Positions 1 to 61,800 of a DNA stretch of 64,000 nt are shown in pieces; the stretch's first letter is position 1, and the number at the start of each line of letters is the position of its first letter. This DNA is from Stylophora pistillata (taxonomy: Eukaryota): positions 1,314,116-1,378,115 of the forward strand of contig NW_019217794.1 in NCBI RefSeq assembly GCF_002571385.2, given 5' to 3'. Made by a program: the position numbers.

Positions 1-3000
1 TGACATTGACCTTGACATTGACCTTGACATTGACCTTGACATTGACCTTGACATTGACCTTGACATTGACCTTGACATTGACCTTGACATTGACCTTGAC
101 ATTGACATTGACCAATCATTCTGACCAATCAGAATGTTCGGTTCGTTTCTTTCTTTGTACTGAATTAACTCTCTTCTGCACTGAATTAACTGAAAACTGC
201 ATACATCTTAACCAATCAGAACTGAGAATTTTTTCATGTATATTATTAGTGTTAAAACATCAGAGACAGTGAAAAAATCTCACAATTAAATACTTCTATA
301 CATGTTTATTTGAAGGGCCAAACTGGCAACTATCCACCTAACACTACCAGAACGTGGGATCTTGGCTTTCTTGCAGAGGACCGTTATTTTAGACTAGAAT
401 TTCGGAGGTTCAAACTTGGACAAGGGTAAGCTTTGTGTGCGTTTAATTTGTGTAAGTTTTTATTTTTATTGTTTTTTTAAAATTTTCTTTACTGTACTAT
501 TTTTTTGTTAATCTATATCAAATCAGAAGCCTTTTCCTAACTTTTAGTCTACCATTTTCATTGTATCTACACATATCACTGACGCCATGGGAAAACCCCA
601 TGTGCGGGGACTTGATGGCTCGATAGAGTGTTAGAGTGTAAGCGTGTGGGGTTCTGTTCAACTAAGCAATCCCCTTGCCCCCCTCTATTCTCGCCCCTTG
701 CATTGATGAGGGTGCCAGATACTAAGCAATCCCCTTTCCCCCCTCTATTCTCGCCCCTTGCATTGATGAGGGTGCCAGATACTTGCCCCAAAGGTTAACT
801 CTATTCCGTTGTATCAATTTTCAGAACGTTTCAAGGGAGACGATCGTTGATGATTCCAGCTAAAGCCTTTTTTCTTACCCTTTTCAGATAATTTGTAAAG
901 TGGTCTAACCTTTTTACGCTGATAGACAGCAAGTCTATCCTGGCTGTAACTCACGCTGAGATTTCCCTTTATATGTACTAAGCTTTCTTTGATTGTTTGG
1001 AAGAATGAACAGATGATATTTGAGGATGACCTAGCTTGCTTACAAACTTTTCTCTCTTCTAAGAAATGATACCCACTCGCCATTAATGACGATGCTTTGT
1101 TTTGTTTTACTCCCCTTTAAAATGATTGTAAGACAGGTATTGACGGATACGATAAATAGTGATTTGCAAAAGTAAAGGGTTCATTGATGTAAAGTAAAAC
1201 TTGAATGGGGAGGAGATGGAAATAGCGGGTGGGGTGGGGGGGATTGAAATCGATCCTACTTGAGTCTTTGAGCCATTGACATTACCACAAAATTCTTGTG
1301 TGTGATGAATAATTACTTTTAATCACCATTTATCCTATTGAAGGCTTAAAATTGAAATAAACTGAGGGCATTGCCGACGACAGCTTTAACTTAATTTTAA
1401 CAGTATTGGTAGCCAAATCCAAATTAAGTTTCCAAAACCTAGAATGACTTACATAATAATAACAAGATAATGAATACTATAATGTTACCTTGAGAATATC
1501 AAAATGCATACTTTGAAACACCTCTTAGCTTATTTGTCTTCTATTTCTTCGGCTGTGCCCTTTACTGGTTATTTCTTCCACAAGGGTAAGTTGTTTATTG
1601 AAGAGATGTCTTTGAAGTCAAGAGTACGACACATACAGAAAAATCAAGCTGAATTACAGATTACATCTGCGACAGTATGCGAGAAATGACCTCTCAGAAA
1701 TAGTCGATGTCTTCTAAACTAGTGTGGATCGCCCTTGTCAATCTTGGGAACACACGAAGTTGTCGTTTGTTTACATATTGATTTCTCATCAACAACGATA
1801 TGAATTCCCCTTTTATTAATCATTTAAGTTTCAAGTCAATGTACGTTGCATCTCTAATATGCCTTTTTTTCCACTTTACTCCATTCAAGAGGGGGCGTTT
1901 CTAATTTCCCATTGAAAACTTTGACAATAAATCCCGCACGTGCGTTGTGTCAACCTCATGCAAAAAATGGATCAATTTTTTCTCATTATTTCAACGTACA
2001 CTTTTCAAACTGCAACAATGTAAAAATCTTGACTGTCATCAACATTAATAATTAAAGAGAAATGCGTCTCATAAAAGCGTGCGGAAGAACAACCGGACTT
2101 TAGGGCAGAGTAATAAACATCGAATGAAATGTTATCGCGTGATTTTTCAAAAGCGTTCATTCTATAGGCATCAGTCATCACTTTCCTTTTCCTGGGCCTG
2201 AAACGAAAACGTATTGGCCAAGTTTACGTTTGTGGAGCAAATAATGTGATGTTACACTTTCTATGATTGGTGAAAGCCAATCCTTTAACAAAATGATTGG
2301 CTCCTTTAAAATATATATACATAATATATAAAGATGAGTTTCTGGGGTCGGACTAGTTCAAAAACATTTAATTAAATGTTTTTGAACTAGTCCGACTCCA
2401 GAAACTCACCTTTATAAAATATTAAATAAATAATGGACTTATATAGCGTCATATCCGACTGCTATGTGGCGCTTTATAATACTGAGTTAAAAAGATAATG
2501 ACTACAATTGATTAAAGACAAAATAATGAAACGAAAGCTTTTTTAAAAAGGTAAGTCTTTAGAAATTTCTTAAAAGCTGCCAAAGAAAAACCAGGCTGTC
2601 TCATATGAATGGGCAGAGCATTCCACAACCGTGGGGCAGCCCCCGCGAAAGCTCTGTTACCATAAGACTTTTGAATAGACCTTGGGACAACCAGAAGAAA
2701 CTGTTTGGATGACCTGAGACTACGACTGGGGATATACGGTGTTAGCAAATCACTAAGATAAGAAGAGGCTAAATTATTCAGAGATTTAAAAACCAACAAC
2801 AAGATCTTAAAAGCAATGCGATGCTCTACTGGTAACCAATGGAGCTCCGAAAGTAATGATGAAGTATGACCAAATTTAGGACAACGCTTAACAAGACGAG
2901 CGGCACAGTTCTGTACAGACTGTGGCCTCTGAGTCTGGAATTTTTGTAGCCCGTATAAAAGGGCATCTTTATTCACCGCTCTGGTCTTACCATCGAGCAC

Positions 3001-58800: not shown

Positions 58801-61800
58801 TATGGACAACATATTTTTCATCTCCACTGCGTCAACAGAAAAACAGTCATTAGAACTAAAAATACGAATGGTTGATTATTGTTTCATGAAACACCAGCCA
58901 TCGGTCAACGGGCGTAAATTCATACTGTTGGTTGTGATAAAAAAGTTTAAAAAAGTAGTAATTACAATAATAAAAGTGTACACAAACGCACAAAAAGCTT
59001 ACCCTTGTCCAAGTTCGAATGACTCCTTAATTTCAAATTTTAGTCTAAGATAACGGTCTTCTGCGAGAGAACCAAGATCCCACGTTCTGGTAGTACTAGG
59101 TGGATAGCTGCCAGGGAAACCAGGCGATCTAAGTTTTACAGTTTTGCCTGTAAATAAACATATATAGAAGTATTAAATTGTAAGATTTTTCCATTGTCCA
59201 TGATGTTTTAACACAAATGCTAATCAGTGGCTCCAAAACTGAAAAGGTGACATCATCAATCTATGCAAATGACTCAAGGTAAATGAGTTAACTGACCCCC
59301 CGGTGACGATGTTTCCATTGATTATTCTAGAAATAGCGCTTTCAAGGACATTTTGAAAGCATAAGAAAGTCAAATACATTATATAATCTCACCATCTGCG
59401 CAAATTTGTATGTTGCCGTGTAGATCCTCGTGTTATCTAGGTATACTTTAAAGTAAATTTTCAGAAAACAGACACTTTTTTTGTGAAGTTACTCTCTCTA
59501 TTTGGTTTCTCTTATGGAAATTAATATCTCATTTCTAAAAGTAAAGTAAACCGCGCGTTTGCCTGCTGATATACGTCCTGCGTTACGTAAAAGCTTAACT
59601 TAGAAATTTTAATCACCTGGGTTAATTGTGATCATTGTCGGTGCGGGTGTCGTAGGTGCTGCGGTGGTCGTCGGTGCTTCGGTGGTCGTTGGTGCCTCGG
59701 TGGTCGTTGGTGCCTCGGTGGTCGTTGGTGCCTCTGTGGTGGTTGGTGCCTCTGTGGTGGTTGGTTCCTCGGTAGTGGTCGGCCCTTCGGTGACTGTCGT
59801 CGGCGCAACTTCGGCATTGCATAAGGTGGTATTGCAACATTCCAACGAACAAGACGTTAGGTTTCCTCCAGCGGATTCGTTACGCGAATTGCATAAGGAG
59901 TCGCTACTGCAAAGTAAATCCGGTAAACAGAACTTAAGAAGGCCTGGCTGATTGGCATTATCAACTGTCCGTATAGTCATACAGGCAAATTCTGCTTTAC
60001 AGTCGTCCACCTTTTCATTGGAACAATCATCTACGCAAGTGGTGCACATTAATTCGGACTCAATTTCTGTTATGCATATCAACAGCACCTAGGGAGAAGA
60101 AATTAATTATCTGTTAGTCCCCTAGTTAAGGATATACTGTTTATATTCTGGATCTCCTTTGTGTGACTGAAAATGGTGCCTAACTAAATAGCAGAAGGAA
60201 AAGAAATTTATATGCCCTTAAAAGAAAATCCTAACAATTTCTTCATATTGTACTGTACTCTAGTGCGACCTAGCTTCCTTGGAACACGCCCGAACTTAAA
60301 TAGATTTCCTTAATGAACAACACAAGGTGCACTGGCAGCGCACATGTCGGTGTGAGATGTAAGTCATTTGCATAAATCGCTTGAAGAAAATGTTTAGGCT
60401 GTACGTTTAGCGTCCTCGGCAATTTGATAGTTCGGTACAGGTAGTTTGGCAGTTTTGGATTTTTTCTTTGAGCATGTTTCAGATTTCGTCGAGATCGTAG
60501 TGCTGATTTGTGTAAATTTTTCAAATGATGATGTTAGAAAGTCAAAACATCTTCACACTTCAGGTTGGCTTTCAACTAAAGTGTCGCCGCACAAAACATC
60601 TGCGGGGCGTGCACCAACTACAAAAGCTTGCAAGATATGTAAGGCATTTCCATGAGAATAATCGGCTATACGATAAAGAACCTGGGGCAGTTGGAAATAT
60701 GATAGAGGAGTGAATAAAGGACCCATAAAGGTTTCTTTTATACGAGCATCTTGCATTTTAATCTGTTCAGACTGTCAGATGGTAACTCTTTATCCAGGTA
60801 ATGGACAAACGCATCAAGATAGAGTTTTGATCTGTTGTCTAGATTTATCTTTACGTTAAGATGATGAAAACAGATATTCCTAACACTACAACATATACAC
60901 CTTAGGTTCACAAAGGTGAATTGGCTTTTAGGGAAATGTTGCAAAACTAATATCAATTGATTATATGAAGTTGTACATTCCTGAGCAAGCGTATCGTCAC
61001 ATTTGATACAGCTGGAAAAAAAATTTTGGCAAAATTGCTAGATGTGTTTAGCTTGACATCACTAGTGCTCATTAATGTTTCAGAAATGTCAGAGTAATGC
61101 ATCCGAAATTATTACCGAAGAGCTGCAACTTGGTTTGGGTATGTTTTCGTTTCCCCACTTTTAGAATTCTTGGCATGTTAGTTGGTTTATTTGCAGAAAG
61201 TATCTGCTATGAACTTGAGAGAAATCAGTCGCTGCAAGGATTTTCAATTAGCTAACAACTATACAAGACCCACCGTTAGATAAAGCAGAGAATCTTTCAT
61301 CTTTAACAGCTTGAATCAATCGACTGCTATAGTTCCCTTTCAAGAATGATAGTAGAAGTGTACGTCTCTTTACATACTTTGAGTCAAATATTGGTTATGA
61401 CGGTCACATTATATAGCTAATAGCGAGTGCCTTCTTAGAGACACCGCGTCTGAATACCCGTATTGACTCTGTCTGCAGTAATATAGCTTTGATTGTCACT
61501 TCCGTTTATTGATATCAGGAGAAAAAACAAAACGATCACGTTTCGTTTTGTGTACTTAACAATTGTCATGTTTTATTTCAGTCGTTTATAACAAGCAACT
61601 GCACTGAGCTTTTTAGACAAGGCCAAGGAGACAGGCAAAAGAATGCAGTAATATATCTGAAGCACTTTGATAAAGAAGTTATATTGTGCTACGGATTCTT
61701 CATTTTTGTATTTCATTCCTGATATTTTGAACTGAAAAGAAATTATTCTAGTTCTCGGCAAAACAGCCCAACAAACAAACCGCTTTCTTGTTTGCTATTC

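What the first reader, a model, noticed from the sequence alone, without database searches (positions are those of the whole stretch)
250..59210. Inverted duplication of more than 20 kb that preserves two intact gene pairs
Seen: 250-20820 mirrors 33765-59210 around a ~13-kb spacer. Non-coding sequence is visibly diverged (roughly 10% by eye) and each arm has its own TE insertions. All identified exons and splice sites of A/A' and B/B' stay intact, and indels are in frame. Inference: a real, old duplication with both copies under purifying selection, not a misplaced haplotype.
[Added by the scan's program, not by the reader: the finding's places include an assembly gap (unread letters, written N; its length is only estimated) at 3390 to 3864, 17634 to 18322, 28805 to 29547, 49878 to 49998, 51816 to 51907, 55524 to 55638. 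Whether the letters on both sides are continuous or in frame is not known: test that first.]
Basis: partly seen in the sequence, partly recalled or inferred. Interest (0 to 1): 0.7.

Follow-up and report, generated by a model that had tools for sequence, protein, structure and literature searches.

The report
Diverged inverted gene-cluster duplication in coral
A roughly 21-25 kb stretch of a stony-coral gene cluster encoding secreted CUB-domain proteins was copied in reverse orientation long ago; it looks like a true duplication, but as assembled one gene of each duplicated pair is damaged, which is an ordinary outcome in coral genomes.

Summary
The inverted duplication is there: 245-20820 mirrors 59218-33764 in 21 collinear blocks. 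Aligned non-coding mismatch is 11.4%, against 4.1% in exons. The window is coral-like, not human-like: CpG o/e is 0.91 and the best named relative is a Pocillopora damicornis protein.

The arms carry two head-to-head genes. A/A' encode a signal peptide plus two CUB domains. B/B' encode a signal peptide, a three-finger domain, a Thr/Pro linker and two CUB domains. Every CUB domain has a poly-Asp insert.

All shared splice sites are canonical, and all exon length differences are multiples of three. Pairwise dN/dS is 0.18 (B/B') and 0.36 (A/A').

"Two intact pairs" is not what the sequence shows. B' has an in-frame TAA at 40562-40564. A lacks the start-codon exon that A' keeps, because a 1.5-kb segment is absent from the left arm.

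The "spacer" holds a third paralogue, C. Both breakpoints fall inside flanking paralogues (C and D), and the left arm carries dead relics of them. That makes the right arm parental.

A haplotype artefact is unlikely: the inner flanks differ within gap-free contigs, and each arm has its own SINE/LINE insertions. However, the relative orientation of the arms rests on scaffold joins. Verdict: a real but ordinary lineage-specific duplication, with low interest.

The parts
245..20820 (.). Left arm (20,576 bp including 1,164 N). Inferred to be the derived, inverted copy.
   Evidence: collinear reverse-complement chain to 59218-33764; it carries only relics of flanking genes C and D.
33764..59218 (.). 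Right arm (25,455 bp). Inferred to be the parental copy, embedded in the array C, B', A', D.
20821..33763 (.). The 12,943-bp 'spacer'. It holds exons 3-7 of paralogue C, two GPCR-like ORFs, and the gaps at 26293 and 28805-29547.
13307..19267 (+). Gene B, apparently intact, with 8 coding exons. Whole-codon cores: 13307-13333 (ATG), 13501-13593, 14026-14439 (three-finger domain plus Thr/Pro linker), 14795-14950 (CUB1 N-half), 15849-16130 (CUB1 C-half), 16776-16928 (CUB2 N-half), 18334-18735 (CUB2 C-half), 19250-19267 (stop).
   Evidence: tblastn of guide P0001; boundaries and splice sites; Pfam.
37110..43151 (-). Gene B', with the same 8 exons: 43151-43125, 41920-41828, 41384-40992, 40630-40475, 39638-39357, 38465-38313, 37909-37508, 37127-37110. 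It is interrupted by a stop in exon 4.
40562..40564 (-). In-frame TAA in B' exon 4. The B counterpart at 14861-14863 is TAT. The other 5 differences in this exon are synonymous.
2178..7679 (-). Gene A, exons 2-7 only: 7679-7605, 7043-6879, 5995-5672, 5339-5184, 4388-4056, 2195-2178 (stop). No start-codon exon was found.
   Evidence: tblastn of guide P0002.
49121..56553 (+). Gene A', apparently intact: exon 1 at 49121-49141 (ATG plus GT donor), then 50163-50237, 50800-50964, 52721-53047, 53381-53536, 54096-54416. The terminal exon is at 55483-55500 and occurs again at 56536-56553.
48593..50086 (.). Right-arm-only segment carrying A' exon 1 and its upstream region. The left arm has 8 bp here (7756-7763). 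Read as a deletion in the left arm.
   Evidence: The exon matches the N-terminus of the Pocillopora orthologue P0002.
30031..36229 (-). Paralogue C: candidate exon 1 at 36229-36203 (inside the right arm), three-finger exon 33047-32694, CUB1 N-half 32170-32015, CUB1 C-half 31645-31457, CUB2 N-half 30819-30660, CUB2 C-half 30564-30031. Exon 2 and the terminal exon were not found.
20148..20174 (+). Relic of C exon 1 in the left arm. The start codon is changed to CTG, and the rest of the gene is absent because homology ends at 20820.
58336..61300 (-). Paralogue D: candidate exon 1 at 61300-61274, three-finger exon 60052-59645, degenerate CUB N-half exon at about 59147-59004 (inside the right arm), CUB C-half-like exon 58710-58336 (in a right-arm-only segment).
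245..486 (+). Left-arm relic of the D CUB N-half exon. It has a 26-bp deletion (a frameshift) and a 9-bp deletion relative to D. The next D exon is missing from the left arm.
17055..17451 (.). Left-arm-only SINE-like insertion in B intron 6, with a hexamer-repeat tail. Copies of the family lie at 52174-52455, 54583-54852, 55641-55906 and 29548-29727.
2324..3052 (.). Left-arm-only insertion with a LINE-tail-like ORF (2515-3030, minus strand) and AT-rich duplicated flanks.
   Evidence: The ORF has no Pfam hit; 'LINE tail' is my reading of the translation.
8669..8973 (.). Left-arm-only insertion with a 7-bp target-site duplication and a tRNA-like core (8829-8901).
38498..38736 (.). Right-arm-only insertion with a tRNA-like core (38602-38677).
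42068..43097 (.). Right-arm-only 1.03-kb segment in B' intron 1.

Best explanation
This is a true paralogous, lineage-specific segmental duplication inside a stony-coral cluster of genes for secreted CUB-domain proteins.

The parental array, now the right side of the window, reads C<- B'<- ->A' D<-. A segment running from inside gene D to inside an early intron of gene C was copied and inserted in reverse orientation about 13 kb away. That copy is the left arm: D' relic, A, B, C' relic.

Since then the arms have diverged by about 0.12 substitutions per neutral site and have collected independent SINE/LINE insertions and deletions. The coding exons of A/A' and B/B' stayed under purifying selection for most of that time. 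The fragmentary C' and D' relics decayed.

More recently, one member of each pair acquired a disabling lesion: a nonsense codon in B', and loss of the start-codon exon in A. As assembled, each arm therefore keeps one apparently complete gene: B on the left and A' on the right.

Shown directly: the arms, their divergence, the exon structures, the lesions, the relics and the differing flanks.

Inferred: which arm is the original, the timing of the lesions, the secreted calcium-binding or matrix role of the proteins, and the correctness of the scaffold joins.
For: Arms and divergence:
- Searches give 21 collinear inverted blocks, with 11.4% non-coding and 4.1% exon mismatch.

Selection:
- B/B': dS 0.084, dN 0.016, dN/dS 0.18 over 506 codons.
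- A/A': dS 0.119, dN 0.043, dN/dS 0.36 over 352 codons.
- Fisher tests of synonymous versus non-synonymous counts give p about 3e-8 and 3e-4.

Lesions:
- TAA in B'.
- Absence of A exon 1.

Polarity (which arm is the original):
- C exon 1 lies in the right arm, upstream of the C body. The left arm has only a copy with its start codon changed to CTG, followed by unrelated sequence.
- The left-arm copy of a D exon carries a 26-bp frameshifting deletion, and the next D exon is missing.

Timing:
- With Desmophyllum (P0003) as outer outgroup, 5 informative sites group A with A', against 1 and 1 for the alternatives.
- B and B' share 64 differences from P0001, against 7 and 12 private ones.

Not allelic:
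- There are no HSPs between inner flanks 20821-26292 and 29548-33763. Each flank is contiguous with its arm end.
- Each arm has private transposon insertions with target-site duplications.
- Published coral heterozygosity is 1.1-2.3%, and that paper reports Ks of tandem duplicates to be very distinct from Ks of allelic pairs (PMC10236652, passages).

Gene identity:
- Pfam CUB and UPAR_LY6/Activin_recp hits are above the curated cut-offs.
- The predicted three-finger-domain model has pLDDT 81, and its best 50 PDB neighbours are all three-finger-fold proteins.
Against: Scaffold joins:
- The arms are joined through scaffold gaps (26293 and 28805-29547, plus five N runs within the arms: two left, three right). 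Their relative orientation and spacing are therefore asserted by the scaffold, not by continuous sequence.

The lesions may not be real or disabling:
- The nonsense codon is a single base in a draft assembly. It could be an error or a heterozygous null allele.
- A might use an unrecognised alternative first exon.
- A, the copy lacking exon 1, is the slower-evolving one: 2 private residue changes against 10 in A'. That is unexpected for a long-dead gene.
- dN/dS of the B/B' exons downstream of the stop is still about 0.19 (summed). If the stop is real, it is recent.

Limits of the evidence:
- C exon 2 and the C terminal exon were not found, so the completeness of C is not shown.
- The heterozygosity of this particular genome is unknown.
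- The outgroup P0001 is an unnamed transcript-like record that could be a paralogue rather than an orthologue.
- The quartet support rests on only 7 informative sites. Gene conversion between arms could mimic a young duplication.
Confidence: 0.75

Rival explanations
1. The two arms are the two haplotypes of a single locus that the assembler failed to merge and the scaffolder placed head to head.
For: The assembly is a gapped draft. Two near-identical tandem repeats abut N runs: 25897-26292 / 26294-26686 at 97.0%, and 54581-55523 / 55639-56576 at 96.5%. These look like uncollapsed alleles, so this assembly may contain such artefacts. Coral assemblies are known to contain allelic duplications (PMC10236652).
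Against: Arm divergence is 11.4% in non-coding sequence. That is three to four times the 3-3.5% of the suspect tandem repeats and well above published coral heterozygosity. About 5 kb of length difference comes from private insertions and deletions. Homology stops sharply, and the contiguous inner flanks share no HSP. One arm has complete neighbours, while the other has only decayed relics of them.
Confidence: 0.04
2. The duplication is real and paralogous, but the inverted orientation and the 13-kb spacing are scaffolding errors. The copies could be direct repeats or lie further apart.
For: Every path from one arm to the other crosses at least two N positions (26293 and 28805-29547). One gap (49878-49998) is flanked by a perfect 86-bp inverted repeat, which suggests local assembly trouble.
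Against: The piece 18323-26292 ties the left-arm end to 5.5 kb of spacer, and the piece 29548-37226 ties gene C to the right arm. Only the two joins around the short piece 26294-28804 could flip the arrangement. The sequence shows nothing positive for a mis-join there.
Confidence: 0.12
3. One reading: both pairs are fully functional, and the two lesions are not real or not disabling. This would require a base error or rare allele at the TAA, and an alternative first exon for A.
For: dN/dS is well below 1 in both pairs, including the B/B' exons after the stop (about 0.19, summed). A is the more conserved copy of its pair. All splice sites are intact in all four genes.
Against: The TAA lies in the middle of a 12.6-kb gap-free piece, far from any N. 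The left-arm junction 7755/7764 has no N and is not repetitive. No in-frame ATG exists in A exon 2, and no counterpart of the ancestral first exon was found in 7700-11500.
Confidence: 0.2

Closest known systems
Tandemly duplicated gene clusters of coral genomes (Noel et al. 2023, PMC10236652; passages read)
   Same: Local, lineage-specific duplication of secreted-protein genes in a scleractinian genome. Paralogue divergence is far above allelic divergence. The same concern applies about telling duplicates from uncollapsed haplotypes.
   Different: Here a multi-gene block of about 21-25 kb was copied in reverse orientation with breakpoints inside neighbouring paralogues. The word 'inverted' has 0 occurrences in that paper's main text.
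Pocillopora damicornis 'CUB and sushi domain-containing protein 1-like' (P0002) and Desmophyllum pertusum 'zymogen binding' (P0003)
   Same: Orthologue-level matches to A/A': 85-98% per exon for P0002 and 57% for P0003. The architecture is the same: signal peptide and two CUB domains, each with a poly-Asp insert.
   Different: They are single database proteins, and their genomic context could not be seen. Despite the source name, Pfam finds no sushi domain in the window's exons or among the Pfam families precomputed for P0002.
Acropora skeletal-matrix CUB-domain proteins and 'threonine-rich protein' (Takeuchi et al. 2016, PMC4890752, passages; Ramos-Silva et al. 2013, PMC3748352, passages)
   Same: Secreted coral proteins with a signal peptide, a coral-specific threonine-rich stretch and a CUB domain. 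One relative has the conserved N-terminus and Thr-rich part but no CUB.
   Different: Those are described with a single CUB domain, and no three-finger domain or poly-Asp insert is mentioned in the passages read. Sequence homology to B/C/D was not tested. Their alignment is in a supplementary figure that I could not open.
Large inverted repeats (palindromes) kept nearly identical by arm-to-arm gene conversion, as on primate sex chromosomes (recalled, not from a call)
   Same: Two multi-gene arms in mirror orientation around a unique spacer.
   Different: Those arms are almost identical. Here the arms differ by 11% with no long homogenised tract (per-block non-coding mismatch 6.6-17.4%), so conversion is not maintaining them.

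Membership tests
Paralogous inverted segmental duplication | Two collinear reverse-complement arms, far beyond chance | tested here: met
   21 collinear blocks, many with E = 0. 16,787 of 19,412 non-N left-arm positions align.
Paralogous inverted segmental duplication | Divergence above the allelic level | tested here: met
   11.4% non-coding mismatch and dS 0.08-0.12, against 1.1-2.3% heterozygosity published for two other corals. The heterozygosity of this genome is unknown.
Paralogous inverted segmental duplication | Each copy has its own flanking sequence | tested here: met
   The inner flanks share no HSP and are contiguous with the arm ends. The outer left flank is only 244 bp long, so this is weak on that side.
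Paralogous inverted segmental duplication | Normal read depth on each arm, and reads spanning junctions and gaps in the assembled orientation | not testable with these tools
   No reads are available.
   B' has TAA at 40562-40564. A has no start-codon exon.
   0.18 and 0.36. These are pairwise values only. Branch-specific values need outgroup coding DNA, which I did not have.
CUB domain (PF00431) | Pfam score above the gathering cut-off | tested here: met
   Exon halves score 28-52 bits against a cut-off of 21.4. P0001 scores 116.9 bits with two stretches.
Ly6/uPAR-type three-finger domain | Pfam score above the cut-off, and conserved cysteine framework with a C-terminal CC..C-N signature | tested here: met
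   UPAR_LY6 scores 25.7 and 25.2 bits against a cut-off of 24.8; Activin_recp scores 23.1 against 20.9. Alignment A1 has invariant C27, C33, C52, C58, C64, C78, C82, C83, C88 and N89. That the signature is typical of the family is recalled.
Ly6/uPAR-type three-finger domain | Three-finger fold | tested here: inconclusive
   The model has pLDDT 80.9. All listed PDB neighbours are three-finger proteins with TM 0.43-0.68, but the best E-value is only 0.011.
Coral skeletal organic matrix CUB / Thr-rich proteins | Signal peptide and threonine-rich stretch next to a CUB domain | tested here: met
   P0001 sequence and the B, B', C and D exon translations.
Coral skeletal organic matrix CUB / Thr-rich proteins | Sequence homology to the Acropora proteins, and detection in the skeleton proteome | not tested
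   The Acropora sequences were not obtainable with these tools. The relevant alignment is a supplementary figure, which is closed.

The most novel reading that the evidence does not exclude
The duplicate block is undergoing complementary decay in cis, so that each arm now supplies one of the two working genes. At the same time it may be creating new architectures. The B' stop falls just after the three-finger domain and Thr-rich linker. If the message escapes decay, B' would encode a stand-alone secreted three-finger/Thr-rich protein. This parallels the Acropora 'threonine-rich' skeletal protein, which shares the N-terminus of a CUB protein but lacks the CUB domain. A', meanwhile, is replacing aspartates in its poly-Asp insert and evolving several-fold faster than A.
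Probability: 0.1. Interest if true: 0.45.

Novelty: new member of a known kind. Interest (0 to 1): 0.22.

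Why it matters
Local gene duplication is pervasive in coral genomes, so one more diverged duplicate block is not surprising.

Its practical value is as a worked example for annotators. Exon-level conservation and dN/dS below 1 do not prove that both copies are intact. Here a nonsense codon and a lost first exon were visible only after mapping full-length relatives exon by exon.

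The gene family itself is a narrow, apparently coral-restricted architecture: a secreted three-finger domain, a Thr-rich linker, and CUB domains with poly-Asp inserts. The three-finger exon matched only 19 clusters among 1.84 billion representative proteins. It may be relevant to calcification, but that link is untested.

Tried and rejected
- Human origin was considered and rejected. CpG o/e is 0.91, GC is 37% and the closest relatives are coral proteins.
- The first search with the whole three-finger exon was crowded by its low-complexity linker (8,000 candidates, 1 hit). Repeating it without the linker again gave only P0001.
- ESM Atlas gave no usable hit.
- ARAGORN found no tRNA. Rfam found two tRNA-like matches inside arm-private insertions.
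- A first exon for gene A was sought in 7700-11500 by peptide scan and by listing every ATG in 7700-9000. None was convincing.
- Exon 2 of gene C was sought by local alignment. The best score was 34, against 29-31 on the control strand, so it was rejected.
- No CUB N-half of D was found by Pfam on ORFs of 45 aa or more, or by a motif scan. A degenerate one was found by eye.
- A PDB sequence search of the GPCR-like ORF 23045-23737 gave nothing meaningful.
- Gene conversion between the arms was considered. No long homogenised tract exists: the lowest per-block non-coding mismatch is 6.6%. The low pS of B exon 7 (0.023) sits beside intron sequence with 12.6% mismatch, so conversion is not supported.
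- My first chain filter dropped block 4719-6169. One search includes it, and the total is unchanged at 11.4%.
- Literature: 'Ly6' + 'CUB domain' + 'coral' gave 1 paper, seen only in the listing and not on this family. 'Inverted duplication' + 'coral genome' gave 0 papers.
All searches, alignments and dN/dS counts were made exon by exon, and only counts were summed.

Full report
**What the window is**

The window has 37% GC and a CpG observed/expected ratio of 0.91, with eight N runs. That composition is not vertebrate-like. The closest named relatives of its genes are stony-coral proteins: Pocillopora damicornis at 88% identity over one exon, and Desmophyllum pertusum at 57%. I therefore treated the window as a coral scaffold, probably from a pocilloporid-like robust coral, and not as human sequence. 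The species was not determined.

**Checking the observation**

Self-BLASTN gives a collinear reverse-complement chain from 245-20820 to 59218-33764, with block identities of 72-94%. The main measurements from 21 chosen blocks are:
- 16,787 of 19,412 non-N left-arm positions align.
- Non-coding mismatch is 1,619 of 14,177 sites (11.4%, JC 0.124).
- Exon mismatch is 106 of 2,610 sites (4.1%).
- By region, non-coding mismatch runs from 9.8% (A introns) and 10.0% (A-B intergenic) to 16.9% (outer flank).

The arms are 20,576 and 25,455 bp long. The length difference comes from arm-private segments.

**The gaps**

No N run lies within an exon of the four genes, so no reading frame crosses a gap. The gap positions are:
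- 3390-3864 is in the last intron of A.
- 17634-18322 is in B intron 6. It stops 10 nt before the exon-7 acceptor, so the AG is read but the upstream tract is not.
- 49878-49998 is in A' intron 1.
- 51816-51907 is in the A' intron between exons 3 and 4.
- 55524-55638 is 23 nt after the first copy of the A' stop codon.
- 37227 is in the last B' intron.

The flanks of the two left-arm gaps, and of 37227 and 51816-51907, are collinear with gap-free sequence of the other arm. That supports continuity across them.

Two gaps could not be checked:
- 49878-49998 is flanked by a perfect 86-bp inverted repeat.
- 55524-55638 separates two 96.5%-identical tandem units.

No gap was filled.

**The genes**

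Pfam on stop-to-stop ORFs found CUB half-domains and three-finger (UPAR_LY6 / Activin_recp) domains in both arms. It also found them in the spacer and beyond the right arm.

Searching single exons recovered two full-length guides:
- P0001 is an unnamed, transcript-like record of 508 aa. It has a signal peptide, a three-finger domain, a Thr/Pro linker and two CUB domains.
- P0002 is a P. damicornis protein of 367 aa, with a signal peptide and two CUB domains.

Mapping these guides by tblastn, and locating the mini-exons, gave the following models:
- B (plus strand, 13307-19267) and B' (minus strand, 43151-37110) each have 8 coding exons.
- A' (plus strand, 49121-56553) has 7 coding exons.
- A (minus strand, 7679-2178) has exons 2-7 only.

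A and B are transcribed head to head, as are B' and A'. Every CUB C-half exon carries an acidic, largely poly-Asp insert.

All shared introns have GT..AG in both copies. The three exon length differences (21, 3 and 12 nt) are multiples of three and lie in the Thr/Pro or poly-Asp tracts.

dN/dS was computed by Nei-Gojobori counts summed over exons:
- B/B': dS 0.084, dN 0.016, dN/dS 0.18 over 506 codons.
- A/A': dS 0.119, dN 0.043, dN/dS 0.36 over 352 codons.

Both ratios are significantly below 1, with Fisher p about 3e-8 and 3e-4. dS is close to the non-coding divergence, as expected for neutral sites.

**What does not hold**

B' exon 4 (the CUB1 N-half) has TAT->TAA at 40562-40564. The other five differences in that exon are synonymous.

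The first coding exon of A' is at 49121-49141. It has an ATG and a GT donor, and it reproduces the length and 6 of 7 residues of the P. damicornis N-terminus. It lies in a right-arm-only segment, 48593-50086. The left arm has only 8 bp there, with no N and no target-site duplication. A exon 2 has no in-frame ATG.

As assembled, only B and A' are complete.

**History of constraint**

In three-way comparisons with the guides:
- B and B' have 7 and 12 private residue changes, against 64 shared differences from P0001.
- A and A' have 5 and 16 private changes, against 13 shared differences and 9 three-way differences from P0002.

With P0003 as outer outgroup:
- 5 informative sites group A with A', against 1 and 1 for the alternatives.
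- Private changes are 2 for A, 10 for A' and 4 for P. damicornis.

By my arithmetic, a neutrally evolving copy would have gathered roughly 49 non-synonymous changes (non-synonymous sites times half of dS). All four copies were therefore constrained for most of the time since duplication, and the lesions, if real, are recent. The B/B' exons downstream of the stop still give dN/dS of about 0.19, summed.

A' evolves faster than A. The two-sided binomial p is about 0.04 for 10 versus 2, computed by hand. Many of its changes remove aspartates from the insert.

The quartet result places the duplication after the split from the P. damicornis lineage. It rests on only seven sites.

**The surroundings change the picture**

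The spacer contains a third paralogue, C, on the minus strand. Its exons are a three-finger exon at 33047-32694 and four CUB half-exons down to 30031.

A start exon for C lies at 36229-36203, inside the right arm. The left-arm counterpart at 20148-20174 has its start codon changed to CTG, and homology ends at 20820.

At the outer end, a fourth paralogue, D, has the following exons:
- its three-finger exon at 60052-59645, outside the arm;
- a degenerate CUB N-half exon at about 59147-59004, inside the arm;
- a CUB C-half-like exon at 58710-58336, in a right-arm-only segment.

The left arm keeps only the N-half exon of D, with a 26-bp frameshifting deletion.

Both breakpoints therefore cut paralogues that are whole, or at least far more complete, on the right and fragmentary on the left. 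From this I infer that the right arm is the parental locus and the left arm the inserted inverted copy. Exon 2 and the last exon of C were not found, so the completeness of C is not shown.

**Is it a misplaced haplotype?**

Four lines of evidence argue against it.
- The divergence is several-fold above published coral heterozygosity of 1.1-2.3% (PMC10236652, passages). It is also above the 3-3.5% seen in the two gap-abutting tandem repeats of this same window, which are the best candidates here for uncollapsed alleles.
- Each arm has private transposon insertions with clean junctions or target-site duplications: 17055-17451, 2324-3052 and 8669-8973 on the left, and 38498-38736 on the right. 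The last two have tRNA-like cores.
- Homology stops sharply, and the inner flanks 20821-26292 and 29548-33763 share no HSP at E <= 1e-3. Each flank lies in the same gap-free piece as its arm end.
- The relics described above show that one copy is a derived fragment.

What I cannot show is that the scaffold joins at 26293 and 28805-29547 are right. 'Inverted, 13 kb apart' is the assembly's statement, and read depth is out of reach.

**What the genes are**

The three-finger call is supported as follows:
- The Pfam scores are above the curated cut-offs.
- An alignment of 19 family members has ten invariant cysteines plus the terminal C-N.
- The AlphaFold model has pLDDT 80.9.
- Its listed PDB neighbours are all three-finger proteins, such as uPAR, CD59, GPIHBP1, BMP/activin receptor ectodomains and snake toxins. 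TM scores are 0.43-0.68, but the best E-value is only 0.011.

This domain type is rare. A full HMMER scan of 1.84 billion representative proteins found 19 with E <= 1e-3. The eight I fetched were mostly short exon-like ORFs with Thr/Pro-rich tails.

P0001 has a signal peptide and no hydrophobic C-terminus, so the proteins are probably secreted rather than GPI-anchored. This is an inference.

Secreted coral CUB proteins with a coral-specific Thr-rich stretch are reported in Acropora skeletons (PMC4890752, passages). A 'CUB domain-containing protein-like' entry is in the Stylophora skeletal proteome table (PMC7115838, table passage). With the poly-Asp inserts, this makes a matrix or calcium-binding role a reasonable guess. 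However, homology to those proteins was not tested, and the relevant alignment is a supplementary figure that I could not open.

**Novelty and verdict**

Local duplications make up about 30% of gene catalogues in long-read coral genomes (PMC10236652). A diverged duplicate block in a secreted-protein cluster is therefore a new instance of a well-known kind.

Two literature searches found no description of this locus or architecture:
- 'Ly6' + 'CUB domain' + 'coral' gave 1 unrelated paper, seen only in the listing.
- 'Inverted duplication' + 'coral genome' gave 0 papers.

The headline claim of two intact pairs is not supported. Interest is low.

Noticed in passing
25897-26292 and 26294-26686: A 396-bp tandem repeat at 97.0% identity whose junction is the single N at 26293. 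It looks like two alleles placed in tandem by the assembler, and it runs through the GPCR-like ORF 26209-26790.
   Followed up: partly
54581-55523 and 55639-56576: A tandem repeat of about 940 bp at 96.5% identity, with gap 55524-55638 at its junction. It duplicates the terminal exon and stop codon of A' (55483-55500 and 56536-56553). The left arm has one copy.
   Followed up: partly
49686-49771 and 49999-50084: A perfect (100%) 86-bp inverted repeat immediately flanking gap 49878-49998 in A' intron 1. It is either a hairpin-type assembly artefact or terminal inverted repeats of an element.
   Followed up: no
23045-23737 (-) and 26209-26790 (-): Two ORFs in the spacer (231 and 194 aa) with transmembrane-like stretches. 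One has a weak 7TM_GPCR_Srsx hit (E 4e-4, below the cut-off). They are possibly GPCR genes or fragments. A PDB sequence search of the first gave nothing meaningful.
   Followed up: partly
17079-17357, 52174-52455, 54583-54852, 55641-55906, 29548-29727, 28306-28572: A repeat family of about 280 bp (86-94% identity between copies), present in introns, in the spacer and next to gaps. The left-arm copy ends in a hexamer-repeat tail, which is SINE-like.
   Followed up: partly
8829-8901 (+) and 38602-38677 (-): Rfam tRNA matches (43.6 and 37.0 bits) that ARAGORN does not call. Both lie inside arm-private insertions, so they are probably tRNA-derived SINE heads rather than tRNA genes.
   Followed up: partly
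1-112: A short tandem repeat with a 12-bp unit at the very start of the window, just outside the left arm. Only 244 bp of outer left flank is visible, so the duplication could continue beyond the window after an indel.
   Followed up: no
52721-53047 versus 5995-5672: In the CUB1 C-half exon of A/A', non-synonymous changes outnumber synonymous ones (15 versus 2; pN 0.057, pS 0.032). Eight of the changes are private to A', and several replace Asp in the poly-Asp insert. A' also has Ala in place of a Gly in the conserved Cys-Gly-Gly start of its second CUB domain (exon 53381-53536).
   Followed up: partly
59613-59948 (+): A sub-threshold Pfam 'Hexapep' hit on the strand opposite the Thr/Pro-rich repeat of gene D. 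It is most likely a low-complexity artefact and not a gene.
   Followed up: no
6026-6361 and 51501-51815: Diverged internal tandem repeats (71-79% identity, period about 110 bp) in the same intron of A and A', next to gap 51816-51907 in the right arm.
   Followed up: no
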